The position numbers were made by a program, and so were the translations under genes. This document shows positions 17,182 to 64,000 of a stretch of 64,000 bases of DNA, piece after piece. The notes under the pieces were generated by a model. It did no database searches. It was not told the origin of the DNA and worked only from the letters and a program-made list of their open reading frames with translations. This DNA comes from an uncultured Gemmatimonadota bacterium (lineage in GTDB: Bacteria > JAAXHH01), in the NCBI GenBank assembly GCA_964593235.1, contig CAZQGS010000033.1, positions 99,071 through 163,070 on the forward strand, in the 5' to 3' direction. Each line of letters opens with the position of its first letter. Position 1 is the first letter of the stretch.

Positions 17182-17556
17182 GTGGTATTTATGAAAAAAC
17201 TGGTAGAACAGATAAAACATATTGAAAAACAATATGTAGCTGGTACTCTAAGTTTTGAAGATATTGAACATGCAAGACAGATTGCGCAGGATGCCTCAAA
17301 TGAGGTAAGACAAAGTCTTCTCTACCTTCATGCAACATCAACTAATCCATATTCATCGGTAGTTGGTATAAGTATTTATGAAGATGGAGTTGACTCCGAT
17401 GGCCTTGACGAGAGGGGTTCCTTTCGATATTCTTCAATAAAAGATGCATTGGATGATGGTTGGAGAATTATCAAATTCCCTGAAACATCTTTAGCCGTTT
17501 ATGAACAAGATAATTACGGACTCGGATATGAATTCGTACTTGAGAGATGGAGGTGA
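17182..17556 (+). CDS. hypothetical small acidic protein
   Basis: ORF with stop overlapping the RBS of the downstream PhyH gene. No family recognised. Confidence 0.3.
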   Translation: MVFMKKLVEQIKHIEKQYVAGTLSFEDIEHARQIAQDASNEVRQSLLYLHATSTNPYSSVVGISIYEDGVDSDGLDERGSFRYSSIKDALDDGWRIIKFPETSLAVYEQDNYGLGYEFVLERWR

Positions 17557-17558
17557 TT

Positions 17559-18443
17559 ATGACAAAACCACCGTACGGGAGTAGAATGGACTGTGCCCCG
17601 ACGATGACAGATCTTGAGATTATCAATTTTTGTCGGACTGGTTATCTTATGTTACCCGGGGTTGTGCCAGAGGTAGTTAATAAACAAGTTATTGAGTATC
17701 TCGAACACGTAGATAGTAGTCACGAACCTACTCCTATAGTTGGAGAATCGTTCTTTTTAGATGAAGTCTTAATGAATCAGGAGGCGGCCGGAGCTGTTCG
17801 ATCACTTTTAGGACGCAATTTCACACTGCCACTTATTATCAGCAACCATCGAGGTCCTCTCCCTTATGAAAAGCCACAGGACTGGCATAGAGATGGAGGC
17901 ACAATATATACCTCAGCATTAGAATACCTGCAGGTTTTTTACTATCCAGAAGAGTGCACCGAAGAGATGGGGCCTACAGTACTTCTCCCAGGTTCACATT
18001 TCATGCGAAATAAGGCACCGATGATGGCACATCTTGGTTCAATAAAAGGAACAGTCTCAACTGCAGCTCCTGCGGGGACCATTATTCTTACAGTTTATGG
18101 GATCTGGCATCGACGTTCTAGAGCCCCATCAGGCCCCCAAGGTAAAAGCCTCTATCGAAATCTCCTAAAGTATAACTATTGGCGAACCTCACCACCCCAA
18201 CGGGACTGGTTAAAAGATGATGATATAGATTTTAATACTATCAACTTCAATCCCCCAGCAGGTGTTTTTGAGCAGTTTCAGGGTGCAATAGCTGCAGCTC
18301 GTATGTTTACCTGGTTATGTGGAATTGAGAGCCAATACAAAAAGCGAGGGGGACAGAACTGGCCTGTTGCCCCTTCGGTTAGGGATGGAATGAATCAGGA
18401 GGGGTTGCCCAAAGCTCTAGCAAATCACAAACAGCAGGATTAA
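17559..18443 (+). CDS. phytanoyl-CoA dioxygenase (PhyH) family Fe(II)/2OG oxygenase
   Basis: WHRDGG (HxD) ... PGSH ... WHRR motifs. GGAGGTG RBS 5 nt before ATG 17559; the ORF-track start 17547 is probably upstream of the true start. Confidence 0.75.
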   Translation: MTKPPYGSRMDCAPTMTDLEIINFCRTGYLMLPGVVPEVVNKQVIEYLEHVDSSHEPTPIVGESFFLDEVLMNQEAAGAVRSLLGRNFTLPLIISNHRGPLPYEKPQDWHRDGGTIYTSALEYLQVFYYPEECTEEMGPTVLLPGSHFMRNKAPMMAHLGSIKGTVSTAAPAGTIILTVYGIWHRRSRAPSGPQGKSLYRNLLKYNYWRTSPPQRDWLKDDDIDFNTINFNPPAGVFEQFQGAIAAARMFTWLCGIESQYKKRGGQNWPVAPSVRDGMNQEGLPKALANHKQQD

Positions 18444-20204: not shown

Positions 20205-21047
20205 ATGATTTATGGGGCAGGAAAATATCAGTATGAAAAATGTGTTGGGTGGGGGGCGGAACGAATACTTGGTATAGCGACGGGCGTAGCCGTTAATTCT
20301 GATAACTATGTTTATGTCGTCGATAGAGAACCTAACCCTGCCGTGGTAGTTTATGATAGTAATGGTTTGGTGTTAAATGAGTGGGGGCAGGATATCTTAA
20401 TTTACCCACACGAAATATGGATAGACAAAGAGGATCAGGTGTATATACCTGATTGCGGGACAAATACAGTTCGTATATTTACGAAAAATGGAGATTTGGT
20501 TCAAACATTGGGTACCGTAAATCAGGTTGGAAACCTCGGATTACCATTTAATAAGCCAACCCGAGTAGTGAAGGGGCCTTCTGGGGATTTTTATATCTCG
20601 GACGGATATGGACAGTGCTATGTTCATCAAATAACGCAGTCCGGTAATTTGATTAAATCTTGGGGCGGTAGGGGTAGTTCTCCAGGGATGTTTACATTAC
20701 CTCACAATATTTTCCCTACATCAGATGGTAGACTTCTTGTGGCTGATCGAGAACCTAACAATAGAATTCAGGTTTTTGATTCAGAAGGGGAGCTCCTTTC
20801 GGTATGGAACGGTAGGCCACAGCCGTGTGGTATATTTGTTGATAGTGAAAATATCGTTTACCTAGCTGAAGGAGGAGGGGTATCTATCCTTGATATGAAT
20901 GGATCCCTTATAACCCAGTGGGTTGTAACCGGGGGGCCCGACAATATCCCCCATGGTCCTCATGGGATATGGGTAGATAAGGAAGGGAATATCTATGTGG
21001 GTGAAGTTGGAGTTGAAAATCTCATACATAAATTTGCCAGAATCTAG
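20205..21047 (+). CDS. NHL-repeat beta-propeller protein
   Basis: Six repeats of the YV.D..N.R.. type typical of NHL/PAL-like propellers. 280 aa. Confidence 0.7.
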   Translation: MIYGAGKYQYEKCVGWGAERILGIATGVAVNSDNYVYVVDREPNPAVVVYDSNGLVLNEWGQDILIYPHEIWIDKEDQVYIPDCGTNTVRIFTKNGDLVQTLGTVNQVGNLGLPFNKPTRVVKGPSGDFYISDGYGQCYVHQITQSGNLIKSWGGRGSSPGMFTLPHNIFPTSDGRLLVADREPNNRIQVFDSEGELLSVWNGRPQPCGIFVDSENIVYLAEGGGVSILDMNGSLITQWVVTGGPDNIPHGPHGIWVDKEGNIYVGEVGVENLIHKFARI

Positions 21048-24307: not shown

Positions 24308-26428
24308 ATGAATATAATTCAAAAAATGGATAACCTTCCTTCTGGAGAATTGATCGTTTTAGCCGGGGTTGGCCAGCGGGTAGATATTCCAGCTCGGGAA
24401 GCAGATGCTGGCTGGCCTATGGGAGTTGTTCGCCGACCCGATGGTGAGTTGGTTGTTGTTGATTATCAATGGCATAGAATATGGCGGATTGATAAAAATG
24501 GGATTTTGCGCGCTTTAGCGGGAGATGGAATTGCTGGTAATTCAGGAGATGGAGGGTTAGCTACTGAGGCTAGGTTATGTCATCCTCATGACATGTGCCA
24601 GGATCAACAGGGCAACCTATATTTTTCAGATCTGGGTAACCATACGATTCGGCGCATTGACTACAAAACTGGTATAATTTCTCGTGTAGCTGGTAATGGA
24701 AAGATTGGTCGAGGTGGAGATGGTGGTCCGGCTCTTGAAGCAGAATTAGATTGTACTTGTGGAGTGGCTGTAGACAGACAAGGTAATGTATACTTGTCAA
24801 GTGAATGGACAAACAATATTCGGAAGATTGATATAAATACTGGTTTAGTGAAAACAGTTTTTGGTCATAATGCTCGTCACTATCCTTCTGAACAAGGTCA
24901 AAGTCGGCCATATGCCGGGAAAGGGCTTAGCTTAGGTGGATATCATGGAGACGGTGGTCCTGCCCAGGATGCAGGTTTCTTTCATCCTGAGCATCTAGCA
25001 TTTGATTCGCAGGGTGATCTATACGTATGTGATAATTCTAATGATCGTATTCGGCGTATCGATATGAAATCTGAAATTATAAATACAGTGTTAGGAAATG
25101 GCCAGAAAGCTTCTAATGGTGATGGGGGATTAGCTTCAGAAGCAAGCACGCTTATGCCCGATGCAATCTGTTTGGATAAAAATGACAATCTTTACGTTGG
25201 GGAAAAATATGGCTTCAGAGTTCGAAAAGTGGACCGAAAAACAGGCCGCGTCACTACATTAGTAGGGACTGGAGAACCCGGTTTTGGCGAAGAAGGATTG
25301 CCAGGAATAAACACGCGATGTAACTCCGTAGAAGCCGGAATTTACGCTGATCCTGACGGGACAGTATTTTGGGGCGATTGCTCGGGGCGGTTACGTTGTT
25401 GTGACGGCAAAACCGGAATTGTAACTACAGTTCTCGGAGGCACTAGTGTTCATGATGGAGAGACCGCTATAGCTGGTTTCCTAAATGGACCTGGTGGACT
25501 TTCGGTTGGTCCTGATGGGAAAATCTATATTGCAGATGTTTGGAATCAACGTATAAGATCGCTCGATCCGGTTACAAAAATCATTAGTACGGTTGCCGGT
25601 TCTGGTGCCCGTGCTTATGGTGGTGATGGTGGCCCAGGTGTTGAGGCCCATTTGGGGAACCCTCATGATATTTCAGTAGACAAATTTGGTAGAGTCGTTA
25701 TAGCTGACACAAGACATGGGCATGTCCGAAGATTGGATGATAAAGGTATTATCTGGAATATTGCTGGGTCTGCTTTCCAATGGGATAAAGGAGATGGTGG
25801 TCCAGCTCTAAGTGCTTGCTTAATGCACGTTCTCTCGGTAACTCACAGTCCTCAAGGCGATATCTACGTTGGGGATGCGGGTTGCGGTCGTATTAGAAAA
25901 ATAGACGCAATAAGTGGTGTTATTGTTACTGTAGTTGGTACTGGCCAAATCGGTTATTCAGGAGATGGTGGTCCAGCAGTTCATGCAAGAATTGGATCGC
26001 CTACAGCTATCAGAGTTGATAGGTCAGGCAACTTATATTTTGCAGATGATCATTTTCACGTCATTAGGCGCGTCGACGGAACTACCGGAATCATATCTAC
26101 ACTTGTTGGAACAGGGGAGAAGGGTTTTACCCAAGACCATTTGAAAGCATCTGATGCTAAGATTTCTTGTCCCCGAGGCCTGGCTCTAGATAGTAAAGGT
26201 TCTGTGTACTTTTCAGATACTGGGAATAATCTTGTGCGCTGTGTTACTCCAGATTCCCAAATCCAAACGGTTGTTGGAAATGGAGGTTTTGGAGATAATG
26301 ATAAGCAGGTAACGGCAAGTAAGGCCGTTTTAAATCAGCCCCATGGTTTGTGCTTTTACGGAGATGATATTCTTTTAATAAGTGACCACTTTAATAACCG
26401 CTTAAAAGCTGTTCGAGTTTCTATCTGA
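24308..26428 (+). CDS. large NHL-repeat protein (tandem beta-propellers)
   Basis: At least 12 repeats carrying the G(D)GGPA..A.L..P signature. 706 aa. Confidence 0.75.
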   Translation: MNIIQKMDNLPSGELIVLAGVGQRVDIPAREADAGWPMGVVRRPDGELVVVDYQWHRIWRIDKNGILRALAGDGIAGNSGDGGLATEARLCHPHDMCQDQQGNLYFSDLGNHTIRRIDYKTGIISRVAGNGKIGRGGDGGPALEAELDCTCGVAVDRQGNVYLSSEWTNNIRKIDINTGLVKTVFGHNARHYPSEQGQSRPYAGKGLSLGGYHGDGGPAQDAGFFHPEHLAFDSQGDLYVCDNSNDRIRRIDMKSEIINTVLGNGQKASNGDGGLASEASTLMPDAICLDKNDNLYVGEKYGFRVRKVDRKTGRVTTLVGTGEPGFGEEGLPGINTRCNSVEAGIYADPDGTVFWGDCSGRLRCCDGKTGIVTTVLGGTSVHDGETAIAGFLNGPGGLSVGPDGKIYIADVWNQRIRSLDPVTKIISTVAGSGARAYGGDGGPGVEAHLGNPHDISVDKFGRVVIADTRHGHVRRLDDKGIIWNIAGSAFQWDKGDGGPALSACLMHVLSVTHSPQGDIYVGDAGCGRIRKIDAISGVIVTVVGTGQIGYSGDGGPAVHARIGSPTAIRVDRSGNLYFADDHFHVIRRVDGTTGIISTLVGTGEKGFTQDHLKASDAKISCPRGLALDSKGSVYFSDTGNNLVRCVTPDSQIQTVVGNGGFGDNDKQVTASKAVLNQPHGLCFYGDDILLISDHFNNRLKAVRVSI

Positions 26429-27827: not shown

Positions 27828-28826
27828 ATGATAAGAGTAGGCTGTATTGGACTTGGTGGTATGGGTATGCACCAGGCTAAGACTTTTGATAAAGTAGAGG
27901 GCTGCCAATTAGTTGCCGGATCTGATTTGTCCCCCGAGATGCGGGAAAGATTTAGTAAAAACTTTCCTGAAACAAAGCTATATGATAGTCCTGAGGATCT
28001 TATTAATAAAGGCAACGTTGATGCTATCGTAGTCGCAGTTCCGACAGGCCTACATTATTCTACTGTTTCGATGGTCCTCAGCGCAGGTATACCCGTAATG
28101 GTTGAAAAACCAATGACCCGAACAGTAGATGAGGGGCGGAAATTGATAGAGCAAGCTGATACAAAGAATACAGTATTGATGGTTGCTCACTGTCGTAGAT
28201 TTGACCCATATTGGAAATCTTGGGGAGCCCATGTGGCTTCTGGAAAGCTCGGAAGGCCTATTCTTTGGCGTAATGCTATGGCAGGTTTTGGCCCTGGGCG
28301 GTGGTATATGGACCATGATATGGGAGGTGGCCCACTAATGGATGGTGCAATTCACAATTATGACTTCGCTAATTTTCTTTTTGGCGACCCCCAAACTGTC
28401 CTATCCAGCTCAATTAATATGGATCCTAATGTATCAGCTATAGATACATGCACAGCGATTGTCAGATTCAGTGATGAAAACCAATTACTTGTATCTTGGA
28501 GTTGGGGAGCCCTAGGGAATGGTCTCCATGATGTTATTGGTCCTAAGGGCTTTATCCAGTTTGGTTTTGGAGATCTCGAGGAACCAGAAGATAAAGATTT
28601 ATACCAGTATTGTTGTTTCACTAATCAACTTGGTGACCAGAAGCTAATAAAATCTCCGATTAATCCTGATATGTATACCTATCAAGCTGAGCATTTTCTT
28701 TCCTGTGTTCGGGACGATGTTACATGTCTTTCACCTGGGACAGAAGCAATTAAAGCTGTTGCTATAGCTGAAACTATCCTTCAAGCTGGTCCTTTGGGGG
28801 AAGCTAAGGAGGTCTCTTGGAAGTAA
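27828..28826 (+). CDS. Gfo/Idh/MocA family oxidoreductase
   Basis: MIRVGCIGLGGMG Rossmann start. 332 aa. Confidence 0.8.
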   Translation: MIRVGCIGLGGMGMHQAKTFDKVEGCQLVAGSDLSPEMRERFSKNFPETKLYDSPEDLINKGNVDAIVVAVPTGLHYSTVSMVLSAGIPVMVEKPMTRTVDEGRKLIEQADTKNTVLMVAHCRRFDPYWKSWGAHVASGKLGRPILWRNAMAGFGPGRWYMDHDMGGGPLMDGAIHNYDFANFLFGDPQTVLSSSINMDPNVSAIDTCTAIVRFSDENQLLVSWSWGALGNGLHDVIGPKGFIQFGFGDLEEPEDKDLYQYCCFTNQLGDQKLIKSPINPDMYTYQAEHFLSCVRDDVTCLSPGTEAIKAVAIAETILQAGPLGEAKEVSWK

Positions 28827-28907: not shown

Positions 28908-29354
28908 ATGAATTACCTTCTAAATTTTATTATGGATCATCCCGGTAAAATGAACTTTGGTTTACTGATTATACGTATCATTGTTGGCTTCAGTATGGCT
29001 GCTTTTCATGGTTGGGGAAAAATTACGGCCCCCGATAAGTGGGTAGCAATAGGGGGTAATATGAAGCTAATAGGGATCACATTTCTACCAGGATTTTGGG
29101 GTTTTATGGCGGGTTTTGCAGAATTCTTCTGCTCTATACTACTGATTCTTGGACTTTTCTTTCGACCTGCAACGACACTTCTAGCCATCACCATGATACT
29201 TGCAGTTTTACGTCATTTATCGTTACCCACAGGTGATCCTGGTTCTGGATTAAGTGGTGCATCTCACGCAATGGAGCTCGGAGCAATATATATCGCTCTC
29301 TGGTTTACCGGCCCAGGAAAGTATAGTTTGATGCCTGGTATAAAGAAAAACTGA
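28908..29354 (+). CDS. DoxX family membrane protein
   Basis: 148 aa with four TM segments. GLLIIRIIVGFSMAAFHGWGKI matches the DoxX signature. Confidence 0.7.
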   Translation: MNYLLNFIMDHPGKMNFGLLIIRIIVGFSMAAFHGWGKITAPDKWVAIGGNMKLIGITFLPGFWGFMAGFAEFFCSILLILGLFFRPATTLLAITMILAVLRHLSLPTGDPGSGLSGASHAMELGAIYIALWFTGPGKYSLMPGIKKN

Positions 29355-31894: not shown

Positions 31895-33358
31895 CTATAT
31901 AGCATAGGCTGGTACTTCATGGGTATGTTTTTGCGCCACACGGTGACTTAGTTTACCATTTTCCATAAAATCTTTTTCTCTACCCTGAGTCACGATTAAA
32001 TCTTCAAGCTTTTTATGGAGAGTTTGGGCTTGGGTATTGTCTTGGCTATAAAGGTTTCTACATTCGTAAGGGTCCTCTTTGATATCATAATACTCGAAGT
32101 TTTCTGTTCGGTAATGCCAGATAAACTTCTCGTTACTATCAACCAAATAATGGCCATATTCAAGGTGCTCTGCGTGCAAATGCCCCCTATTCAGATGTTT
32201 CTGTTCCCCTCGGACTAAGGGCATTAAAGAGCAACCATCTATTCCAGCCGGCAAAGGAAGTCCACATACATCTAGAAGGGTAGGCATTAAATCTGCTAGC
32301 CCAACAGTAGAATCAGGATATTCTTGGCCAATTGGGAGGTTCATCTGCGCCGGAAAGTTTAGAACGAAGGGCACCCGTATTGAACCTTCATAACCGAAAG
32401 ATTTAGCCCAATAATTATGATCGCCCAACATTTCTCCATGATCACTGACAAATGCGAAGACAAGATTACGTAGGTTAAGTAACCGCCACATGTGGTAAGT
32501 AAAGCGAGTAATTTGGGAATCAACATGATCAATACATCCATAGTATCCTGCCCTTCCACGTCGAACGTTTTTAGCTGAAAGAGCAAGGTATTCTGCTTCT
32601 GGAAAGGGACCATTGGCGTTGACAAACGGCTTTCGTCCTTTCATAGCATGCGCAGGGTCTCCAATTACAGGATCTGGAATATCGGGATCGTTAGCATATC
32701 GTTCATAAAAAAATGAAGGTGGATCCCAGGGTGGGTGGGGTTTACTAAAGGATACATATAAGAAAAAGGGGGTATCATGGCCATATTTTCGAACATGTTC
32801 ATCCATAACCCCAATTGCTTCCGTCGCTGTCCAGGAGGTTACGTGAAATTGTTCTGGAAATACACAGGGTCGAGCAGAATACCCATTATTTGTTACCCCA
32901 GCATTAAATAACCCAAAATTCTTCCAGCCTTGTTTTGCCAGCCATTCTATGTAGTCATCTTGATAGTTTGGAGACAAGAAACGACCTTCTTCATGTGTAA
33001 TGATTTTGTCAAAACCATAATTTGCATCTTGAGGATAAACGTGGCGTTTACCCACGCTGTAAGTTTTGTAACCATTGCGTTGAAAGACCTTGCACAGAGT
33101 ATTTGGTTCATCCCACGTTGCCATATCATCGAAACCAACCATTCCATTTGTGACAGGCCACTGTCCACTAAATAGGGTACGACGCGCCCCTACGCAAGAA
33201 GGGACTTCTGAGATAGCCCGGGGAAAGTAGTGTCCGGTTTGTGCAAGTGCATCGATTCCCGGTGTATGAATCACAGGGTGACCAGCAATGCCTAGGGTGT
33301 CTCCACGATGTTGATCCGTAGATATAAGAACAATATTGGGTTGGTTTCCAGGTTTCAT
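31895..33358 (-). CDS. sulfatase family protein (no signal peptide, non-canonical CVGAR active-site motif)
   Basis: NIVLISTDQHRGD metal-binding start and PSCVGARRTLFSGQ at the formylglycine position. 487 aa. Confidence 0.75.
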   Translation of the reverse strand: MKPGNQPNIVLISTDQHRGDTLGIAGHPVIHTPGIDALAQTGHYFPRAISEVPSCVGARRTLFSGQWPVTNGMVGFDDMATWDEPNTLCKVFQRNGYKTYSVGKRHVYPQDANYGFDKIITHEEGRFLSPNYQDDYIEWLAKQGWKNFGLFNAGVTNNGYSARPCVFPEQFHVTSWTATEAIGVMDEHVRKYGHDTPFFLYVSFSKPHPPWDPPSFFYERYANDPDIPDPVIGDPAHAMKGRKPFVNANGPFPEAEYLALSAKNVRRGRAGYYGCIDHVDSQITRFTYHMWRLLNLRNLVFAFVSDHGEMLGDHNYWAKSFGYEGSIRVPFVLNFPAQMNLPIGQEYPDSTVGLADLMPTLLDVCGLPLPAGIDGCSLMPLVRGEQKHLNRGHLHAEHLEYGHYLVDSNEKFIWHYRTENFEYYDIKEDPYECRNLYSQDNTQAQTLHKKLEDLIVTQGREKDFMENGKLSHRVAQKHTHEVPAYAI

Positions 33359-33398: not shown

Positions 33399-34229
33399 TT
33401 ATGATGATAGAATTTTTGTTCCGATAATGATATGCCGGAACAGTGGTTTGGTTTTGTCCGGCAATTGTTCATAAAGTTCTGAAGTGATTGGAACGACATC
33501 ATCTGCTCGAGTTCCTTTTTCAGCTGCTTCTATTTCATAATCCGAAAGTCCCGGAATTAGGTTATTTAGATTAAACCACCATGCGGCATAGCGGGCAATA
33601 ACAGCAATTCGGTTTGTGTTGCTCTTGTTTGCTCCGTTAGTATGCCAGATACGACTATCAAACAATAAAACACTACCAGGGTCTCCTTCTGCCTGAATCT
33701 CTGAAGGGTGAGTTGATTCTAATACTAGTCTAGAATTTCCGGTGGGATTATTCTCCGCTTTATGACTTCCTGGTACCAGAACTGTCCCACCATTTTTCTT
33801 AGTGAAGGGTGTCAACATCCAAAGACTGGTCAAAAGTAATGGGGCGTCAGGATATGGGGCCGGAACGCGGAAGTCGTACCCCTGCCCGAAAGGATAGTCA
33901 GAATGAAGTCCTCCACCGTTACCTTCAGCTCTTGGATAACCAGGTTCGAGAATAACACCGGTGGTCATAGAAATCCGTACGTGATGGCCAAAAAATGCCT
34001 CATTAATAGCCATGATTCTATCATCAGAAAGATATGGGGCAATTGATTGGTCGTATGCGATAAGTCCTCGCACGGCTTGGCGTCCGTTAATTGGAGCTTC
34101 GGGTTGAGATGTTGCGGTATTAATAATACTTTCTTTTATCTTTTTGACTTCATGCTCTGGTATAACATTGTTGACGACACACCAACCCTCTATTTGGATC
34201 CGTTTTACATAGTCGTCAATTGTTGACAT
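33399..34229 (-). CDS. phytanoyl-CoA dioxygenase (PhyH) family oxygenase
   Basis: HSDYPFG (HxD) and WHTNGAN distal His, with the cupin-like DSBH spacing. Confidence 0.7.
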   Translation of the reverse strand: MSTIDDYVKRIQIEGWCVVNNVIPEHEVKKIKESIINTATSQPEAPINGRQAVRGLIAYDQSIAPYLSDDRIMAINEAFFGHHVRISMTTGVILEPGYPRAEGNGGGLHSDYPFGQGYDFRVPAPYPDAPLLLTSLWMLTPFTKKNGGTVLVPGSHKAENNPTGNSRLVLESTHPSEIQAEGDPGSVLLFDSRIWHTNGANKSNTNRIAVIARYAAWWFNLNNLIPGLSDYEIEAAEKGTRADDVVPITSELYEQLPDKTKPLFRHIIIGTKILSS

Positions 34230-49669: not shown

Positions 49670-50494
49670 ATGGAAATACAAGTTGTCAGTGGAGGCATGT
49701 TCAAACTTGATGGGGGAAGTATGTTTGGGATTGTCCCAAAACCACTTTGGGAAAAGATCTGTCTTCCCGATGACCGCAATCGAATTAATAATGATACAAA
49801 CTGTCTCCTAATTCGTAAAGATTCCCGATTGATATTAGTTGACACGGGATATGGAGATAAATTAAACCCACGAGATCAAGATATCTATGGAATATCTGGT
49901 CCCACTATCCTAAAATCTCTCGCGGCAGTTGGAATAGGAGCCTCAGAAATTGATCTTGTCATCCTAACTCACCTTCATTTTGATCATGCCGGGGGGGCTA
50001 CCCAGCTTGATGAGGAAGGGCGATTAGTTCCTACTTTTCCCAATGCCCATTATGTCGTTCAGAAAGGCGAATGGGAGGACGCATTGAATGAATATGGCAC
50101 AATGAAAAATACCTATCGTTCTGAAAATTATTTGCCACTTATGGATAGGGGTTTATTAACTTTATTACATGGCGATACAGAAATAGAACCCGGGATCCAG
50201 GTGGAAGTTACGGGTGGTCATACTCGCCATCACCAACTAGTTAAAATTGAAACAGGCACCAGTCAAGTAGTTTACGCCGGTGATATCCTACCCATGACAC
50301 CCCATGTGCGTGCTCCCTACAACATGGCATACGATCTGTTCCCATATGATACGATGATGGCTAAGCTCCGATTACTTAAACAGGCTTCAGATGAGGCTTG
50401 GATTATCATATGGGACCATGATGCTGAGGTGTCATCAGGTAGAATTTATTGTGAAGGATCCGGCAACTACCAATTTGAAGCTTTAGATATTTGA
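49670..50494 (+). CDS. MBL-fold metallo-hydrolase
   Basis: THLHFDHAGG metal-binding motif. 274 aa. Confidence 0.75.
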   Translation: MEIQVVSGGMFKLDGGSMFGIVPKPLWEKICLPDDRNRINNDTNCLLIRKDSRLILVDTGYGDKLNPRDQDIYGISGPTILKSLAAVGIGASEIDLVILTHLHFDHAGGATQLDEEGRLVPTFPNAHYVVQKGEWEDALNEYGTMKNTYRSENYLPLMDRGLLTLLHGDTEIEPGIQVEVTGGHTRHHQLVKIETGTSQVVYAGDILPMTPHVRAPYNMAYDLFPYDTMMAKLRLLKQASDEAWIIIWDHDAEVSSGRIYCEGSGNYQFEALDI

Positions 50495-51046
50495 TGCCTC
50501 GGGATCTTCCCAAAATTTTTCTAATTCTACACCGAGGCCATCTACGGTTCGATTACACCAGGCAAAAAACCCAGTGATCTGGTTAATCTCTAAAATAGCT
50601 TTATCTTCAAATCCACTGTCCCTAAGCTGGTCAATATCAGCTTGGGTAATCGAGGCTGGTGCTATTGTAAGTTTTCTTACATAATCTAACATACTTCGGT
50701 TAGGTACGTCTAATTTTGCTTTGCGGTAATCCATTTTAATCTGATTTACTAGTTCTTTATCGCCAATTTCTCTGAGGAGCCCCTCCCCATGATGACGTAT
50801 TCAGTATTCACACTCATTGAGAGCAGAGACAGTTACTGCTATCATTTCCTTTTGACCTAGGGAGATATCGCAGTCTCCGTGCATTACTCCCTTATAAAAA
50901 CTATTAAGGGCCCGAAGTGCAGATACGTTCAAACTATGGGCTTTGATTATGTTATCAACTCCTCCCCAAGAACGCATCGAATTCTGATAAATTTTGTTCA
51001 ATGGACCTTTTGCTTCTTTTTCATCAACTGTGCGTATCCAGGCCAT
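50483..51046 (-). CDS. AhpD/carboxymuconolactone-decarboxylase-family peroxidase-related protein; candidate selenoprotein with an in-frame UGA (Sec) at 50801..50803
   Basis: Two ORF-track pieces (50801..51046 and 50483..50734) are in the same frame and separated only by one TGA. The read-through translation gives ...VSALNECEY-U-IRHHGEGL..., placing U at the second Cys of the family CxxC(x3)H motif. There is a GAGGAG RBS before ATG 51046 and a stem-loop 12 nt downstream of the UGA. Confidence 0.6.
50761..50797 (-). other. candidate bacterial SECIS stem-loop downstream of UGA
   Basis: Minus-strand RNA CGUCA-UCAU-[GGGGAG-GGG-CUCCUC]-AGAGAAAU-UGGCG. The inner element is a 6-bp stem with a GGG apical loop starting 13 nt after UGA, inside a 5-bp outer stem. 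Confidence 0.35.
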
Positions 51047-51067
51047 TTCTATCTCCTCTGATTTTGG

Positions 51068-51916
51068 CTATAAATCGAAGTGTTTGCGCATTCGGGTTAC
51101 AGCTAATTTTTCCTCTTTACTTAATGACTCTAGTTCATACTCTTCGTCTGTAATCTGTTTTTTGTATTCTTCAAAGGGAAGACCTTCCTTGCCTGTTTCA
51201 TTAAAATAGCTGCTGAGTTGGAACCGTTGAAAAATATTCATTCGGGGATAATCCTGTGTCCATTCAGCTGCATCATGTAGTAAGTTAGTTGAAAAAATAA
51301 TAACATCACCCGCATCCATCGGTATAGTAATTGACACAGGTGGGTAGTTGCCAACTCTAAGTTTATCAGGGGTTTGGAAGGCTGATTTATGGCTGCCAGG
51401 TACAAGACTGAAACCTGTTCCAGGAGGGATTGGTACTAATGCTATCCAAGTTGCTATGTGGCTACAGTAGATTTCCCCACCCGCAGTTTGGTAATCATTA
51501 TGAGGGTTTCGAAATCCGAGAGGAAACTTTATACCGCTATCATCCCGATGATAAGTTTGATGATTTTCACTATTAGGATTACTCTTTTCCATTTTTGTGA
51601 AATTACAGTGAAATAAACGAGGAAGGCCCATTGTTAGTCCAGCAATAATCCGAATAATGTCGGGGTTTACGTTCAACTCCTGAAAAAGCTGGTGCCCATA
51701 TTGGATATGATCTAGATGAGTTTTGTAGGGCTCCTGTCTATGTCTAGATACAGGTGCCGGAATTTCAGTTTCATCAACACTCAACCAGCTATTAATGACG
51801 TCCAAAATAGGCAGCAAATGATCTGGTTGGATCACACCTCGTAAATGGAGGAATCCCTGTAGGTCGAAAAGCCATTTTTCGTTATCGGTCAATAAATGAG
51901 TATAGTCGGATGGCAT
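51068..51916 (-). CDS. phytanoyl-CoA dioxygenase (PhyH) family oxygenase
   Basis: YHRDDSG (HxD), PGSHK and LLHDA motifs. Immediately upstream of the AhpD-like gene in the same operon. Confidence 0.7.
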   Translation of the reverse strand: MPSDYTHLLTDNEKWLFDLQGFLHLRGVIQPDHLLPILDVINSWLSVDETEIPAPVSRHRQEPYKTHLDHIQYGHQLFQELNVNPDIIRIIAGLTMGLPRLFHCNFTKMEKSNPNSENHQTYHRDDSGIKFPLGFRNPHNDYQTAGGEIYCSHIATWIALVPIPPGTGFSLVPGSHKSAFQTPDKLRVGNYPPVSITIPMDAGDVIIFSTNLLHDAAEWTQDYPRMNIFQRFQLSSYFNETGKEGLPFEEYKKQITDEEYELESLSKEEKLAVTRMRKHFDL

Positions 51917-52069
51917 TTAGTCCTCTACAACTTGGTATACTGTTTAAAAGTGGATATAAGTGCCTCGATTTTATATTGTGTCTCGTTTACTATCAGAAAT
52001 CGAAATGGATTTCCTTAACAGCTTAGTCCATCACCAGTGGAAAACAGAATTTACATTAAACTCTACTTA

Positions 52070-52870
52070 TTACCTACCCATCCAACCACCGTCAACAGTT
52101 ATTATAGACCCGTTGACATAATTGGATGCATCCGAGCAGAGGTAAACTGCCGCTCCTTTGAGGTCCTCCGGAATTCCCCAGCGCTCCGCTGGGATCCTAT
52201 CAGAGATAGCCTGAGATCTAACTGGATCAGTTTGAAGAGCTGAAGTAAGGTCCGTCATAATATATCCAGGAGCAATAGCATTAACGTTAACACCCTGCGA
52301 AGCCCATTCATTAGCAAGAGCGCTGGTAAGTTGTGCTATGGCTCCCTTAGAGGCAGAATAACTAGGAACTGTTATTCCCCCTTGGAAACTCAATACAGAA
52401 GCGGTAAACAAAATTTTCCCTTTACCTCGTGCTATCATGTCCCTACCAATTTCTCTACTTAAGACAAACGGTGCATTTAAGTTGACGTTAATTACTGTAT
52501 CCCAGTAATCATCTGGATGTTCAGCTGCCGGAGCCCGAAGAGTAAGTCCTGCATTATTAACAAGAATATCAATTATAGGAAAATTGGTCTTTACTTTATT
52601 AATAAATTTGTAAAGATCTTCTCTATTATTTAGGTCTGCATTAAAACCACTGAATTCTTGCCCAATTGACCTGATCGATCGTTCGATATCACTACCAGAT
52701 TCCTCAAGAGATGAACTCACCCCTATAATATCAGCTCCTGCCTCTGCAAGTCCCTCAGCTAAAGCTTTACCAATGCCCCTCCGACAACCGGTAACAAGTG
52801 CAACCTTGCCATCCAATTTAAAGGTTTCTAATATAGACATGGTTTGGTTTCCTTGGACAAATTTTTTCAA
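52070..52870 (-). CDS. SDR family oxidoreductase (KduD/FabG-like)
   Basis: VTGCRRGIGKALA glycine motif, NNAG, and a S...Y..K catalytic triad pattern. Confidence 0.8.
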   Translation of the reverse strand: MKKFVQGNQTMSILETFKLDGKVALVTGCRRGIGKALAEGLAEAGADIIGVSSSLEESGSDIERSIRSIGQEFSGFNADLNNREDLYKFINKVKTNFPIIDILVNNAGLTLRAPAAEHPDDYWDTVINVNLNAPFVLSREIGRDMIARGKGKILFTASVLSFQGGITVPSYSASKGAIAQLTSALANEWASQGVNVNAIAPGYIMTDLTSALQTDPVRSQAISDRIPAERWGIPEDLKGAAVYLCSDASNYVNGSIITVDGGWMGR

Positions 52871-52940
52871 TAAAATATGCTAAGAGTTAAGTAGTAGTCG
52901 ACAATAAGTTAATCTCTACTCAATTTGTCAAATAAGTTTT

Positions 52941-53684
52941 ATGGCTGTATCTTCTGGAATAACTTTAGCTAATTTATATTGGATAGGAGGTAACGTGGTT
53001 ATTGAAGAACTAAATTTTATGTGCAGGTCCTTAAATTCAAATAATCATTATTGGGAACAGGGCATATTCCCTGAATGGACAAAATTAAATTGTTACCGGC
53101 ACTACCCCGACGGAGAGATTGGGACTGGAGTGGAGCCTCATTATCATGATAATGATGAGATCTGGTTATTTACAGCGGGCTGGGGTGAAGTATATTTAGA
53201 TGGGATCAAGTTTGATATTACGCCTAATACCTTGGTGTACACGCCCATGGGTTGCGTACACCAATTTCAGATGTTCTCCGACTATGAAAATAATGCTCTA
53301 GTGACAGGATTGGAAAGAAAACAAAGAAAGGGGCACCTTACAATCAGAGCCAACGGACAACCCGAACCTACTGTTCCAGGTTTTGTGATTCCCGGGGACT
53401 CTAACACTGGGCCGATCCCCAGTCATAGTAATCGGAGCCCTATTGTTGAATGGCGACTTCAGAAGAATGAAGAGGTCAATAACTTGGAAGTTTCAGATCT
53501 AAAACAGCATGAACATTGGATGGTTTTGGAAGGGACCTTATCTTTGATTCTTAATGGCCGGGCTTTTTTTCTTGACCCAGGGGATATCGCACTAATCCGC
53601 TCCGGGGTCAATCGTAAAATATCCACGACAGATCCTAATTTTCGGGCTGTTGTCTTACGTGAAAATTTGGGTAAAGCAGTTTAG
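52941..53684 (+). CDS. bicupin-domain protein
   Basis: Two cupin-like modules (HYHDNDEIWLF...GCVHQF and HEHWMVLEGTL...GDIALIRSG). Confidence 0.45.
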   Translation: MAVSSGITLANLYWIGGNVVIEELNFMCRSLNSNNHYWEQGIFPEWTKLNCYRHYPDGEIGTGVEPHYHDNDEIWLFTAGWGEVYLDGIKFDITPNTLVYTPMGCVHQFQMFSDYENNALVTGLERKQRKGHLTIRANGQPEPTVPGFVIPGDSNTGPIPSHSNRSPIVEWRLQKNEEVNNLEVSDLKQHEHWMVLEGTLSLILNGRAFFLDPGDIALIRSGVNRKISTTDPNFRAVVLRENLGKAV

Positions 53685-59133: not shown

Positions 59134-60252
59134 TTAAATAAGATTAGGTAATAATGGATGATCTCGATTTTCAAGCGGAAGGGCGGTACGAGTTTCAGAT
59201 AAATGGGAAGCATAAATCCCGTGTATCATTTCTAATGCCCATCGACCATCATAGCCACTGTTGATAGGCCTTCGGCCATCTCGCCTTGCTTCGAAAATAT
59301 CTCGAACAATAGCAACATTCGCAGTATCTTGTAGGAAACTTTGGGAAGGTTGCTCAGATGGCGAAAGTTGGAGAGCCTCCTTTGTTACGTCGCGAACGGG
59401 CTTGTTGCAATCAGGATGCCAGATGGGGGATTCGTAAATTCGGATCTGTTGGGATGACTCGTGGACTGTCATTATCCCTTCTGATCCATATATCCACATT
59501 CCATATCGGTTGGAATCCTGTTTTTGGTTCCGCCTTGTTTCAAAGGTTGCAGTCACACCATGCCCAAAACCATAGACCGCAAGTATAGCATCTCCTGCAA
59601 TCAATCCCAGCTCTTCCGGACCTTTTTCCACATCATCTAAGTTAATTGGTTGACCACCGGTCTTCGATACAGTTGCTTGAACCCAGATAGGATTTCTTCC
59701 TATCAGAAACCTCAACATATCAAAAAGGTGGGTTCCCAAGACCATCAGATCTTCTCCACCACCACGGTGATCTTCCTTACCCCTCATTCGTATGTTAAGA
59801 ATATCACCTATAACACCTTCAGCAAGCAACCTACGTGCAAGCGATCCAGCAAAATGCATGCGACCTTGATGGGCTATACCCATCATAACTCCTGCTTTTT
59901 CACACGCTTCAATCATAGTATCAGCTTCAGCAAGAGACCGGGCAATTGGTTTTTCCAAAAATATTGAGGCACCCGAGTCAGCAACAGCTAAGGTCATAGC
60001 TGCATGCTGGTCTAGCCATCGTGGACAGATACTGACTATATCGAACCACTCATTCCTTAGCATTTCTCTATAATCAGTATATAAATTTGTTACCCCTAGC
60101 CGTTTTCCAGCTTTCTGTAAACCTGCTGTATCGTCATCAGCAACAGCAATGATATCCACATCCTCCATTTTAAGATAAACCGTGTCAAGGCCATGCCCAT
60201 AGTTTCCTTTACCAGTACGCCCGATTATTCCAGCACGATAGCGTCTACTCAT
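59134..60252 (-). CDS. Gfo/Idh/MocA family oxidoreductase
   Basis: AGIIGRTGKGNYGHG Rossmann motif. 372 aa. Confidence 0.75.
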   Translation of the reverse strand: MSRRYRAGIIGRTGKGNYGHGLDTVYLKMEDVDIIAVADDDTAGLQKAGKRLGVTNLYTDYREMLRNEWFDIVSICPRWLDQHAAMTLAVADSGASIFLEKPIARSLAEADTMIEACEKAGVMMGIAHQGRMHFAGSLARRLLAEGVIGDILNIRMRGKEDHRGGGEDLMVLGTHLFDMLRFLIGRNPIWVQATVSKTGGQPINLDDVEKGPEELGLIAGDAILAVYGFGHGVTATFETRRNQKQDSNRYGMWIYGSEGIMTVHESSQQIRIYESPIWHPDCNKPVRDVTKEALQLSPSEQPSQSFLQDTANVAIVRDIFEARRDGRRPINSGYDGRWALEMIHGIYASHLSETRTALPLENRDHPLLPNLI

Positions 60253-62997: not shown

Positions 62998-64000
62998 CTA
63001 GATAGAATTTTCATCTAATGGAAAATCTATACGTACATTCCCATTTTTCTGTGAAGCAAGGAAACCCAACATTATTTCAAGGGTATTTCGTGCTTCACGT
63101 GGTGAGGAGATAGTCTCTCCACCATTTTCCATGACTTTGATAAGATCTCTCACCGTAGCGGCTGCATTAAAATATGTTTGGCCTGGGGGTACAATTGTTT
63201 GGATGCCATCCCCCGTATTTAATTCATAATAATCTTCATTAATAAAAATCCATCCATCTGTACCGTCTAATTGAAATCCTCCTCGGCATTCCATACCTTT
63301 TGTTCCATTATAGAAAGCTCGTACACCATTTTTAAAATGAATGAATCCAGAACATCCTGGTTCTAGATCAGCATTTTTACCACCATCACCTTGATATGGC
63401 CAATAGTTCTCGTAACCCTCATCTAGCTCAGCAAATACCCATGCAGGTTGGGAACCTGATAGAAAACACACCATATCGATCATGTGAGTTCCATTACGAA
63501 AAAGGATAGCTCTTGGGCCTCCAAAGTTAAGGGTTATACGTTTTAGCTGACCTATTATACCATTTTCAAGGAGTTTTTTTACCTCACGGTAAGTAGGTAA
63601 CCATCGACGGGTATGGTTTATTGTCATAGTTACATTATTATTTTCAACAGCCTCAATCATTCGATCCGCATCGGATAATGTCGTTGCGATAGGTTTTTCA
63701 CAGAATATCCCACGGACGCCTGCTTTGACACCATCTATTACGATATTAGCATGTCGGTTGTCGGATGTTACAACACTTAATATATCTGGTTTGCATACTG
63801 CTAACATTTCTTTATAGTCTGTAAAACCCTTAAGTCCAGGAAAGCGTCCTGACCAATCTGAGACAGTATCTTGAACAAGTTTTTCTTGAAGATCACAAAC
63901 TCCTATTACCGTAGTTGCAGGTGCGTAGTCATATGCCTGCATATGACTACTAGGCATTTTGTGTCCAAGCCCATTGTTGCCATTTTTCAGAGGGTTCCCC
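62998..64000 (-). CDS. Gfo/Idh/MocA family oxidoreductase (N-terminus beyond window edge)
   Basis: The ORF stays open upstream to position 64000. The in-window N-terminal region reads ...NGNNGLGHKM.. with a Rossmann-like GxGxxG, followed by a C-terminal alpha/beta domain. Confidence 0.65.
   Translation of the reverse strand, partial: GNPLKNGNNGLGHKMPSSHMQAYDYAPATTVIGVCDLQEKLVQDTVSDWSGRFPGLKGFTDYKEMLAVCKPDILSVVTSDNRHANIVIDGVKAGVRGIFCEKPIATTLSDADRMIEAVENNNVTMTINHTRRWLPTYREVKKLLENGIIGQLKRITLNFGGPRAILFRNGTHMIDMVCFLSGSQPAWVFAELDEGYENYWPYQGDGGKNADLEPGCSGFIHFKNGVRAFYNGTKGMECRGGFQLDGTDGWIFINEDYYELNTGDGIQTIVPPGQTYFNAAATVRDLIKVMENGGETISSPREARNTLEIMLGFLASQKNGNVRIDFPLDENSI

What the first reader, a model, noticed from the sequence alone, without database searches (positions are those of the whole stretch)
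50483..51046. AhpD-family peroxidase-like gene with an in-frame UGA at the redox CxxC position: candidate selenoprotein
Two ORF-track fragments share one reading frame and are separated by exactly one TGA and no other stop. The TGA is at 50801..50803 on the minus strand. The 81-aa fragment is the N-terminal half and the 83-aa fragment is the C-terminal half.

Reading through the TGA gives ...IAVTVSALNECEY-U-IRHHGEGLL... In the carboxymuconolactone-decarboxylase/AhpD 'peroxidase-related enzyme' family the catalytic motif is ...N-G-C-x-Y-C-x-x-x-H.... The UGA therefore falls exactly on the second (resolving) Cys, giving C-E-Y-U-I-R-H-H. Sec-for-Cys replacement at a CxxC redox site is the hallmark of bacterial selenoproteins, and AhpD-like selenoproteins have been reported in marine metagenomic surveys.

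The gene has a good RBS (GAGGAG, then 6 nt, then ATG at 51046). It lies in an operon behind a PhyH dioxygenase and an SDR. This implies the organism carries the Sec machinery (selABCD) elsewhere in its genome.
Basis: partly seen in the sequence, partly recalled or inferred. Interest (0 to 1): 0.75.

Follow-up and report, generated by a model that had tools for sequence, protein, structure and literature searches.

The report
AhpD-like selenoprotein gene with UGA-Sec
This is a real selenoprotein gene: a small AhpD-like redox enzyme whose active-site cysteine is replaced by selenocysteine encoded by an in-frame UGA. It belongs to a selenoprotein family catalogued in marine bacteria since 2005, so it is a correct but ordinary find.

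Summary
On the minus strand, 51046..50483 is one 187-codon frame interrupted only by TGA at 50803..50801 (codon 82). With that codon read through, the protein is a full-length TIGR01926 "peroxidase-related enzyme" (134 bits, cutoff 81.8). The UGA aligns with the second Cys of the C-x-Y-C-x-x-x-H active site in three solved homologues and in at least 24 Cys-containing homologues.

All 73 orthologous loci fetched from MAGs carrying about ten phylum labels have TGA at exactly this codon. Both halves are equally conserved (about 61-62% identity) and the downstream frame stays open. A hairpin 11 nt after the UGA (7 bp, GGG loop starting 18 nt after the UGA) meets the published bacterial SECIS model. 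It is kept in all 72 aligned orthologues, partly through coordinated synonymous changes.

TGA is an ordinary stop elsewhere in the window, so a code change, a pseudogene, a sequencing error and a split gene are all rejected.

Not shown: Sec machinery in this genome. None lies in the 64 kb. One orthologue-bearing MAG fragment carries tRNA-Sec.

The family (AhpD-like, TIGR01926/COG2128, CxxU) was described from the Sargasso Sea in 2005 and was the fourth most abundant selenoprotein family in GOS. One correction: U sits at the exposed, attacking Cys (MtbAhpD Cys133), not the "resolving" one.

The parts
50483..51046 (-). Complete AhpD-like (TIGR01926) selenoprotein gene: 187 codons plus a TAA stop. 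ATG at 51046..51044.
   Evidence: single frame, one internal TGA. (TIGR01926, 134.2 bits against a cutoff of 81.8, positions 2-173 of 178). (PF02627 CMD, 38 bits). (PDB 2pfx, E = 1e-31).
50801..50803 (-). UGA codon 82, read as selenocysteine, in the motif C79-E-Y-U82-I-R-H-H86.
   Evidence: It aligns with the second Cys of C-x-Y-C in solved homologues and in at least 24 full-length Cys homologues. TGA sits at this codon in 73 of 73 orthologous loci.
50773..50789 (-). Core SECIS-like hairpin, 17 nt: U GGGGAG / GGG / CUCCUC A. It has 7 bp and a GGG loop at 50780..50782. It starts 11 nt after the UGA, and the loop starts 18 nt after it. It is encoded by codons H86-G-E-G-L-L-R92.
   Evidence: fold; all 72 orthologues form at least 5 contiguous bp closing a 3-5 nt loop that contains GG; 0 of 2000 synonymous resamplings were as stable; 88.6% of cells paired. 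The model criteria are from PMC13188914.
50762..50796 (-). Extended SECIS candidate, with a lower stem (GUCAUC...GG...GGC) around the core hairpin. MFE is -10.8 kcal/mol for the 42 nt starting at the UGA.
   Evidence: The lower stem is not conserved in sequence across orthologues, so only the core is well supported.
51053..51058 (-). Shine-Dalgarno-like GAGGAG, 6 nt upstream of the ATG.
   Evidence: Read directly from the sequence.
50810..50812 (-). Codon TGT for Cys79, the first Cys of the CxxU motif. It is the partner for a selenenylsulfide.
   Evidence: It is conserved as Cys in all orthologues.
50846..50848 (-). Codon for Glu67. This matches the proton-relay Glu found 12 residues before the first Cys in AhpD (Glu118 in MtbAhpD, Glu36 in PA0269).
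   Evidence..GQKEMIAV... The relay is defined in PMC3141380. The E-M-I-A motif is conserved in homologues.
51068..51916 (-). Upstream neighbour: a PhyH-family dioxygenase whose stop lies 21 nt before the selenoprotein ATG. Probably co-transcribed.
   Evidence: PF05721, 37 bits. The adjacency is conserved in 21 related loci.
52070..52870 (-). Short-chain dehydrogenase/reductase, 153 nt upstream of PhyH on the same strand.
   Evidence: adh_short_C2, 184 bits. It is syntenic in 22 related loci.

Best explanation
The gene encodes a 187-residue AhpD-like thiol/selenol oxidoreductase (TIGR01926 'peroxidase-related enzyme', CMD/AhpD fold). Codon 82 (UGA) is decoded as selenocysteine.

Proposed mechanism:
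1. The ribosome reaches UGA82.
2. A 17-nt hairpin starting 11 nt downstream (7 bp, GG-containing loop), embedded in the codons for H-G-E-G-L-L-R, acts as a bacterial SECIS.
3. The hairpin recruits SelB-GTP-Sec-tRNA(Sec), so Sec is inserted instead of termination.
4. In the protein, Sec82 occupies the exposed, attacking position of the C79-x-x-U82 redox pair, with the AhpD proton relay Glu67/Tyr81/His86. It cycles through a selenenylsulfide with Cys79 to reduce a peroxiredoxin partner or a hydroperoxide.

Shown here: the gene structure, family membership, the Sec/Cys alignment, universal conservation of the TGA and of both halves, and the conserved hairpin.

Inferred: SelB binding, actual selenium insertion, the substrate, and the presence of selABCD elsewhere in the genome.
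For: - Single in-frame TGA.
- The read-through product is a full-length TIGR01926 member: 134.2 bits against a cutoff of 81.8.
- U82 aligns with the second Cys of C-x-Y-C in PDB 2pfx, 3c1l and 6k40 and in at least 24 full-length Cys homologues.
- TGA is at the same codon in 73 of 73 orthologous loci carrying about ten phylum labels, at 42-84% aa identity.
- The N-terminal and C-terminal halves are equally conserved (mean identity 0.62 and 0.61). The post-UGA frame stays open for 96-110 codons in 72 of 73 loci; the one exception lies at a contig end.
- Only 9 of 72 orthologues have ATG or GTG after the TGA.
- TGA ends 8 of 46 long ORFs in the window, and the window has tRNA-Trp(CCA), so the standard code applies.
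- The hairpin meets all four criteria of the published bSECIS model (PMC13188914): a 3-nt loop, a 7-bp stem, GG at the start of the loop, 18 nt of spacing, and -10.8 kcal/mol.
- All 72 aligned orthologues form at least 5 contiguous bp there.
- The rare codons GGG-GAG-GGG-CTC-CTC are kept in a 40.7% GC genome (usage 0.20, 0.27 and 0.105). None of 2000 synonymous resamplings folds as well.
- Cys homologues vary at the GEGLL positions. Three of them lack a comparable hairpin: -3.0, 0 and -3.0 kcal/mol against -8.4.
- tRNA-Sec lies on one orthologue-bearing MAG contig.
- The family is catalogued as a CxxU selenoprotein.
Against: - No selA, selB, selD or tRNA-Sec in the 64-kb window. The rest of the genome could not be searched.
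- The hairpin is not significant against dinucleotide shuffles (z = -1.0).
- Classical compensatory covariation is sparse: 2 pairs, 5 cells. Helix and peptide motif overlap, so part of the conservation could be protein-level.
- No Rfam SECIS family matches.
- There is no experimental evidence of selenium incorporation or of activity for this family.
Confidence: 0.93

Rival explanations
1. Pseudogene or sequencing/assembly error: the TGA is a recent nonsense mutation, or a miscall of TGC/TGT, in an ordinary Cys-type AhpD-like gene.
For: A single window sequence cannot by itself exclude a one-base error. Cys forms of the family with TGC/TGT exist.
Against: TGA is at the identical codon in 73 of 73 independently assembled orthologues. 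The downstream half is as conserved as the upstream half, and its frame is intact. No Cys form was recovered inside this clade.
Confidence: 0.01
2. UGA is a sense codon in this organism (genetic code 4 or 25), or is read through by a near-cognate or suppressor tRNA as Trp, Gly or Cys, without selenocysteine.
For: Two database entries show W at this position (P0001 and P0002). Sec machinery was not found in the window.
Against: The W entries are gene-caller artefacts on short contigs: P0001's contig has TGA and does not translate to the entry under table 11. TGA terminates 8 of 46 long ORFs in the window, and gene lengths are normal under table 11. Carriers span about ten phylum labels that use the standard code. 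The position is a redox Cys, and a SECIS-type hairpin is conserved at the canonical distance.
Confidence: 0.04
3. Split gene: two separate polypeptides (81 aa and about 105 aa) are made, the second by re-initiation just after the stop, and they assemble non-covalently.
For: Gene callers annotate 105-aa products that start at GTG or ATG immediately after the TGA in some orthologues (P0003 and P0009).
Against: In the window the next codon is ATA. Across 72 orthologues, 63 have a non-start codon there (ATC, ATT, ATA, GTC, CTG, ACG and others). There is no ribosome-binding site. The break would cut the CxxC active-site helix between Tyr81 and the catalytic residue, removing the second redox residue altogether.
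Confidence: 0.02

Closest known systems
AhpD-like selenoprotein family (called 'AhpD-like protein' in the Sargasso Sea study and 'AhpD-like 1' in GOS; COG2128 / TIGR01926; CxxU motif)
   Same: Same domain family: TIGR01926 passes its cutoff. Same Sec-containing motif, CxxU. Same marine metagenomic habitat, and a bacterial SECIS with G in a small apical loop. The family is listed with 27 sequences in the Sargasso Sea (PMC1088965) and 299 sequences in GOS, where it ranked fourth in abundance (PMC2398784). It also appears as 'AhpD-like protein, TIGR01926, CxxU' in a 2026 review table (PMC13188914).
   Different: Nothing essential. This copy comes from a low-GC (40.7%) member of a lineage whose MAGs are labelled Latescibacterota or Gemmatimonadota, and it sits behind PhyH and SDR genes. 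I could not fetch the published example sequences (AACY01418594, MCB9421940.1) to confirm they fall in the same subclade.
Mycobacterium tuberculosis AhpD (alkylhydroperoxidase D, Cys130-x-x-Cys133)
   Same: The AhpD/CMD core domain (TIGR00778 at 33.8 bits against a cutoff of 27.8; PF02627). The five-residue proton relay maps onto the window protein: Glu118/Cys130/His132/Cys133/His137 correspond to Glu67/Cys79/Tyr81/Sec82/His86 (PMC3141380). U sits at the Cys133 position, the residue that cross-links to AhpC Cys61 (PMC6626918).
   Different: A different subfamily. The motif lies in the N-terminal half of a 187-aa protein, and Tyr replaces His132 (as in P. aeruginosa PA0269). No equivalog-level hit appeared among the NCBIfam matches at E up to 0.01. 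There is no adjacent ahpC gene. Sec replaces Cys.
Solved TIGR01926-type proteins: PDB 2pfx, 3c1l (Mlr4105), 6k40 (annotated as AhpD), 2oyo and 2prr
   Same: Sequence homology runs over nearly the whole length (E = 1e-31 to 1e-20). The ...N-x-C-x-Y-C-x-x-H-G... active-site helix is the same.
   Different: All have Cys where the window gene has UGA. Downstream of the motif they read HGAAV or HGAAL rather than HHGEGLL, and they lack the conserved Cys164.
Other AhpD/CMD-related selenoprotein families: NF041238 AhpD_rel_CFYUT, NF053654 YciW-related (seleno)protein, and the CMD-like PF02627 CxxU family
   Same: The same superfamily and the same CxxU logic.
   Different: The scores are far below the family cutoffs: 51.7 against 175, and 33 against 310. 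The window protein is not a member of these.
E. coli fdhF SECIS (the SelB-binding hairpin)
   Same: A hairpin inside the coding region just downstream of the UGA, with a small apical loop containing GG or GU. Nineteen orthologues have a GGUC tetraloop. From my own memory, not checked here: the minimal fdhF element is a 17-nt stem-loop 11 nt from the UGA, which matches this geometry.
   Different: No sequence similarity and no bulged U. No Rfam SECIS model matches. SelB binding is untested.

Membership tests
TIGR01926 peroxidase-related enzyme (AhpD-like, COG2128-type) | Full-length match to the family HMM above its curated cutoff | tested here: met
   134.2 bits against a cutoff of 81.8, residues 2-173 on profile positions 1-173 of 178 (U entered as C).
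TIGR01926 peroxidase-related enzyme (AhpD-like, COG2128-type) | AhpD/CMD core domain carrying the CxxC(U)xxxH motif and the upstream relay Glu | tested here: met
   PF02627, 38.2 bits against a cutoff of 23. TIGR00778, 33.8 bits against 27.8. The sequence has E67, C79, Y81, U82 and H86, which correspond to Glu36/Cys48/Tyr50/Cys51/His55 of PA0269 (PMC3141380).
TIGR01926 peroxidase-related enzyme (AhpD-like, COG2128-type) | Peroxidase or peroxiredoxin-reductase activity | not testable with these tools
   No biochemical data. The family is itself annotated as 'uncharacterized peroxidase-related'.
Bacterial selenoprotein (AhpD-like, CxxU) | In-frame UGA aligned with a Cys in homologues (a Sec/Cys pair) | tested here: met
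   (three solved structures). (24 or more full-length homologues with C-x-Y-C). (TGC/TGT in L074-L076).
Bacterial selenoprotein (AhpD-like, CxxU) | UGA conserved among orthologues, with conserved coding sequence on both sides | tested here: met
   73 of 73 loci have TGA; mean identity 0.62 for the N-terminal part and 0.61 for the C-terminal part, with the downstream frame open.
Bacterial selenoprotein (AhpD-like, CxxU) | bSECIS hairpin: 3-9 nt loop, 4-16 bp stem, G in the first two loop positions, 16-37 nt from the UGA, and MFE of -7.5 kcal/mol or lower (PMC13188914) | tested here: met
   7 bp, GGG loop, 18 nt spacing, -10.8 kcal/mol; conserved in 72 of 72 orthologues. The bSECISearch program itself was not available.
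Bacterial selenoprotein (AhpD-like, CxxU) | selA, selB, selC (tRNA-Sec) and selD in the same genome | not testable with these tools
   None is present in the 64-kb window. Indirect support: tRNA-Sec (RF01852, 63.8 bits) on orthologue-bearing contig L054.
Bacterial selenoprotein (AhpD-like, CxxU) | Selenium demonstrated in the protein (75Se labelling or mass spectrometry) | not testable with these tools
   This needs an experiment.
Canonical M. tuberculosis-type AhpD | Equivalog-level sequence match and pairing with an ahpC gene | tested here: not met
   One search lists only the core-domain model TIGR00778 and no AhpD equivalog. No AhpC/Prx domain is found in the neighbouring genes.
NF041238 AhpD_rel_CFYUT / NF053654 YciW-related (seleno)proteins | Score above the family cutoff | tested here: not met
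   51.7 against 175, and 33 against 310.
Alternative genetic code with UGA as a sense codon (tables 4 and 25) | TGA not used as a terminator, and genes fragmented under table 11 | tested here: not met
   TGA ends 8 of 46 ORFs of at least 200 codons; gene lengths are normal under table 11; tRNA-Trp has anticodon CCA.

The most novel reading that the evidence does not exclude
The SDR-PhyH-selenoprotein arrangement is conserved in about 20 related MAGs. This could mean that here the AhpD-like selenoprotein is not a general antioxidant. It might instead be a dedicated redox partner of a 2-oxoglutarate/Fe(II) dioxygenase pathway, for example reducing a specific hydroperoxide intermediate or protecting the dioxygenase. 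This would also be the first evidence of selenocysteine use in this Latescibacterota/Gemmatimonadota-labelled, sponge- and seawater-associated lineage. A smaller point: the SECIS switches between two pairing registers (GGGGAG/CUCCUC with a GGN loop, versus GAGAA/UUCUC with a GGUC loop) through coordinated synonymous changes while the peptide stays G-E-G-L-L.
Probability: 0.12. Interest if true: 0.4.

Novelty: already known. Interest (0 to 1): 0.2.

Why it matters
The value is mainly for annotation. Standard gene callers split or truncate this gene. Public databases hold it as 105-aa "peroxidase" fragments, as N-terminal stubs, or as code-4 translations with Trp at the Sec site. Recognising it restores a complete redox enzyme and flags the organism as a selenium user, which implies selABCD elsewhere in its genome. 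It adds no new biology beyond the AhpD-like CxxU selenoprotein family described in 2005-2008. It does add a clean comparative data set (74 sequences) showing how a SECIS hairpin constrains both codon choice and the encoded peptide (an invariant GEGLL).

Tried and rejected
- Rfam scan of 50650..50900 at E up to 10: no SECIS family, only two chance hits. The whole-window Rfam scan found only tRNA-Trp.
- Dinucleotide-shuffle test of the hairpin: z = -1.0, not significant on its own. I replaced it with synonymous-codon resampling and comparative analysis.
- Formal covariation counting: register 1 is 88.6% paired but has only 2 pairs with double changes; register 2 is 76% paired with none. The helix is mostly conserved rather than covarying, because it overlaps an invariant peptide. 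I therefore do not claim covariation proof.
- Search for Sec machinery:
  - ARAGORN on the window and on all 73 loci found one tRNA-Sec, in L054.
  - A Pfam scan of 59 of the 62 listed window ORFs of at least 120 aa (three that overlap longer ORFs were left out) found no SelA, SelB or SelD.
  - The genes beside the L054 tRNA-Sec are MiaB, TPR proteins and the like, not sel genes.
  - tblastn with an E. coli SelD sequence recalled from memory found nothing in the window or the loci. This is a low-weight negative.
- Scan of the window for other TGA-split genes: on reading the flanking peptides, no other pair looked like a coding frame.
- Promoter/terminator scan of 50300..53100: nothing above the shuffle expectation.
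- Literature search for selenocysteine in Latescibacteria or Gemmatimonadetes: nothing informative.
- One Cys-homologue contig (P0028) returned no DNA, so the hairpin control rests on only three Cys genes.
Full report
**1. Observation**

On the minus strand, the frame from ATG 51046..51044 to TAA 50485..50483 has 188 codons and exactly one internal stop: TGA at 50803..50801, codon 82. The 83-aa piece is only the part that begins at an internal ATG. The sequence after the UGA is 105 codons long. GAGGAG lies at 51058..51053, 6 nt before the ATG.

Of 24 TGA-split frame pairs in the window, this is the only one I judged to lie in a believable coding frame, from the flanking peptides.

**2. What the protein is**

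I entered Cys at position 82 to search the family libraries.
- The product matches NCBIfam TIGR01926 "peroxidase-related enzyme" over its full length: 134.2 bits against a cutoff of 81.8, positions 2-173 of 178.
- It also matches the AhpD core domain TIGR00778 and Pfam CMD PF02627.
- Related selenoprotein models NF041238 and NF053654 score far below their cutoffs.
- Solved relatives are 2pfx, 3c1l, 6k40, 2oyo and 2prr, with E from 1e-31 to 1e-20. In the three printed alignments, residue 82 lies on the second Cys of N-x-C-x-Y-C-x-x-H-G.
- The AhpD proton relay Glu118/Cys130/His132/Cys133/His137, which is Glu36/Cys48/Tyr50/Cys51/His55 in PA0269 (PMC3141380), maps onto Glu67/Cys79/Tyr81/U82/His86.

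**3. Is the UGA real and translated?**

The protein database search gave a clear pattern.
- The closest relatives are 105-aa fragments beginning [V/M]-Q-H-H-G-E-G-L-L.
- Others are N-terminal fragments ending ...L-N-x-C-x-Y.
- Two are full-length entries with W at the junction.
- More distant full-length homologues (33-46% identity) have C-x-Y-C.

The contig behind one W entry has TGA and does not translate to the entry under table 11. The W is therefore a code-4 gene call on a short contig.

A scan of one genome per species returned 73 loci. Their MAG labels are Latescibacterota, Gemmatimonadota, Chloroflexota, Actinomycetota (Acidimicrobiales), Pseudomonadota, Acidobacteriota, Myxococcota, Neomarinimicrobiota, Zixiibacteriota and Planctomycetota.
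- All 73 have TGA at the aligned codon (for 72 of them; L066).
- Identity to the window protein averages 0.62 upstream of the UGA and 0.61 downstream.
- The downstream frame stays open for 96-110 codons in 72 of 73 loci. The exception lies at a contig end.
- The codon after the TGA is ATG or GTG in only 9 of 72. It is ATA in the window.

In the window, TGA terminates 8 of 46 long ORFs, gene sizes are normal under table 11, and the only tRNA is Trp(CCA).

These results reject a sequencing error, a pseudogene, a split gene and a reassigned genetic code.

**4. SECIS**

Eleven nucleotides after the UGA lies the 17-nt hairpin U-GGGGAG-GGG-CUCCUC-A (50789..50773). It has 7 bp and a GGG loop that begins 18 nt after the UGA. 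The 42 nt starting at the UGA fold at -10.8 kcal/mol.

The published bacterial SECIS model requires four things (PMC13188914): a 3-9 nt loop, a 4-16 bp stem, G in the first two loop positions, 16-37 nt of spacing, and an MFE of -7.5 kcal/mol or lower. All are met.

In an ungapped alignment of 72 orthologues, every sequence forms at least 5 contiguous pairs closing a 3-5 nt loop. The loops are GGG, GGU, GGC, GGA, GGUC, AGGUC and AGGCC.

Two registers occur.
- GGG GAG GGN CUC CUC gives 6-7 bp.
- GGA GAA GGU CUU CUC gives GAGAA/UUCUC with a GGUC loop. This extends to 7 bp when the next codon is CGN.

Both types are present among the Chloroflexota/Acidimicrobiales loci and among the Marinimicrobia loci.

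The two Leu codons are restricted to CUC or CUU, with one exception: L036 has TTC (Phe) at the second one. This holds in genomes ranging from 41 to 60% GC.

In the window, GGG is 0.20 of Gly codons, GAG is 0.27 of Glu codons and CTC is 0.105 of Leu codons. None of 2000 synonymous resamplings gave a core hairpin as stable as the real one.

Cys homologues have variable residues where the Sec clade has GEGLL, which is invariant in 72 of 73 loci. Three Cys genes show core energies of -3.0, 0 and -3.0 kcal/mol, against -8.4 in a Sec orthologue.

Caveats:
- The dinucleotide-shuffle z-score is only -1.0.
- Strict compensatory changes are few.
- No Rfam SECIS model matches.

The evidence is therefore conservation plus constraint on synonymous sites, not classical covariation.

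**5. Sec machinery**

The window contains no tRNA-Sec and no SelA, SelB or SelD domains. One orthologue-bearing Marinimicrobia contig (L054) carries a tRNA-Sec 5.8 kb upstream. ARAGORN calls it with anticodon TCA, and Rfam RF01852 scores 63.8 bits against a cutoff of 47. Its neighbours are not sel genes. I could not search the rest of this genome, so the machinery is implied but not shown.

**6. Context**

PhyH (51068..51916) ends 21 nt before the ATG. An SDR (52070..52870) lies 153 nt further upstream. A metallo-beta-lactamase-fold gene (49670..50494, + strand) converges on the selenoprotein gene and overlaps its 3' end by 12 nt.

The order SDR-PhyH-selenoprotein-MBL-adenosine deaminase-ABC ATPases is shared with about 20 loci at 65-80% aa identity. 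Those loci have 54-59% GC against 40.7% here. PhyH is not found in the fetched flanks of the more distant carriers. A general functional link is therefore not supported. The promoter and terminator scans were uninformative.

**7. Mechanism**

*Inferred:* SelB-GTP-Sec-tRNA(Sec) binds the hairpin as the ribosome reaches UGA82 and inserts Sec.

In M. tuberculosis AhpD, Cys133 (the second Cys) cross-links to AhpC Cys61, and Cys130 is partly buried (PMC6626918). Sec82 is therefore at the exposed, attacking position, and Cys79 would resolve the intermediate through a selenenylsulfide. The same paper reports that in B. thailandensis AhpD the first Cys mattered more, so the roles may differ between subfamilies. 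The substrate is unknown.

**8. Comparison with what is known**

"AhpD-like protein" (COG2128, CxxU) was reported as a new selenoprotein family from the Sargasso Sea with 27 sequences (PMC1088965). "AhpD-like 1" had 299 Sec sequences and 902 Cys homologues in GOS, the fourth most abundant family (PMC2398784). A 2026 review table lists "AhpD-like protein, TIGR01926, CxxU" (PMC13188914).

The window gene passes the TIGR01926 cutoff and has that motif. It is a member of an already catalogued family.

**9. Verdict**

The feature is real but already known. I give 0.93 confidence to the selenoprotein reading and an interest score of 0.2.

Noticed in passing
whole window compared with L001-L023 and L038: The window has 40.7% GC. 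Its roughly 20 syntenic relatives (65-90% aa identity across SDR, PhyH, the selenoprotein, MBL, adenosine deaminase, ABC ATPases and ProRS) have 54-59% GC. This looks like a low-GC member of a lineage whose MAGs are variously labelled Latescibacterota or Gemmatimonadota, several of them from sponges or corals. The SECIS codons are unchanged despite the GC shift.
   Followed up: partly
database proteins P0001-P0081; L077 447-1004: Public protein collections hold this family in three wrong forms: 105-aa C-terminal fragments named 'peroxidase', N-terminal stubs ending in C-x-Y, and full-length entries with Trp at the Sec codon. The Trp entry whose contig was read (P0001, locus L077) comes from a code-4 gene call on a short contig.
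   Followed up: yes
window 50773-50789 (-) and alignment A2, columns 15-32: Among orthologues the SECIS hairpin exists in two alternative pairing registers. The switch involves three coordinated synonymous changes (GGG/GAG/CTC to GGA/GAA/CTT) and a change of the following Arg codon (AGA to CGN). Both types are present in at least two clades.
   Followed up: partly
window about 50555-50557 (-), codon 164: Cys164 (in FFAWCNR) is nearly invariant in the Sec clade outside Marinimicrobia. The solved Cys homologues 2pfx and 3c1l and homologue P0014 lack it (FNMTNR, FNMSNR, FNFVNR). It could be a third redox residue. I did not examine it structurally.
   Followed up: no
L054 4371-4462: A tRNA-Sec (anticodon TCA; Rfam RF01852 at 63.8 bits) lies 5.8 kb upstream of the AhpD-like selenoprotein orthologue in a Marinimicrobia MAG. 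The flanking genes are MiaB, TPR proteins and a large glycosylhydrolase-like protein, not sel genes.
   Followed up: yes
window 49670-50494 (+) and 50483-51046 (-): A metallo-beta-lactamase-fold gene converges on the selenoprotein gene. Their 3' ends overlap by 12 nt, which leaves no room for an intergenic terminator.
   Followed up: no
window 17547-18443, 33399-34229, 51068-51916; also 7072-8175, 27828-28826, 59134-60252, 62998-63957: The window has three PhyH-family dioxygenase genes and four GFO/IDH/MocA oxidoreductases. It also has a sulfatase (31895-33358), two NHL-repeat proteins (20205-21047, 24308-26428), two fatty-acid desaturases and two Opp/Dpp-type solute-binding proteins. This is the gene content of a marine organic-matter degrader.
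   Followed up: no
L074 500-2558: The nearest Cys-type homologue examined (P0014, CEYC) sits between a DoxX gene and a DsbD_TM/AhpC-TSA/thioredoxin fusion gene. That is a thiol-redox neighbourhood the window gene lacks. The window has a DoxX gene far away, at 28908-29354.
   Followed up: no
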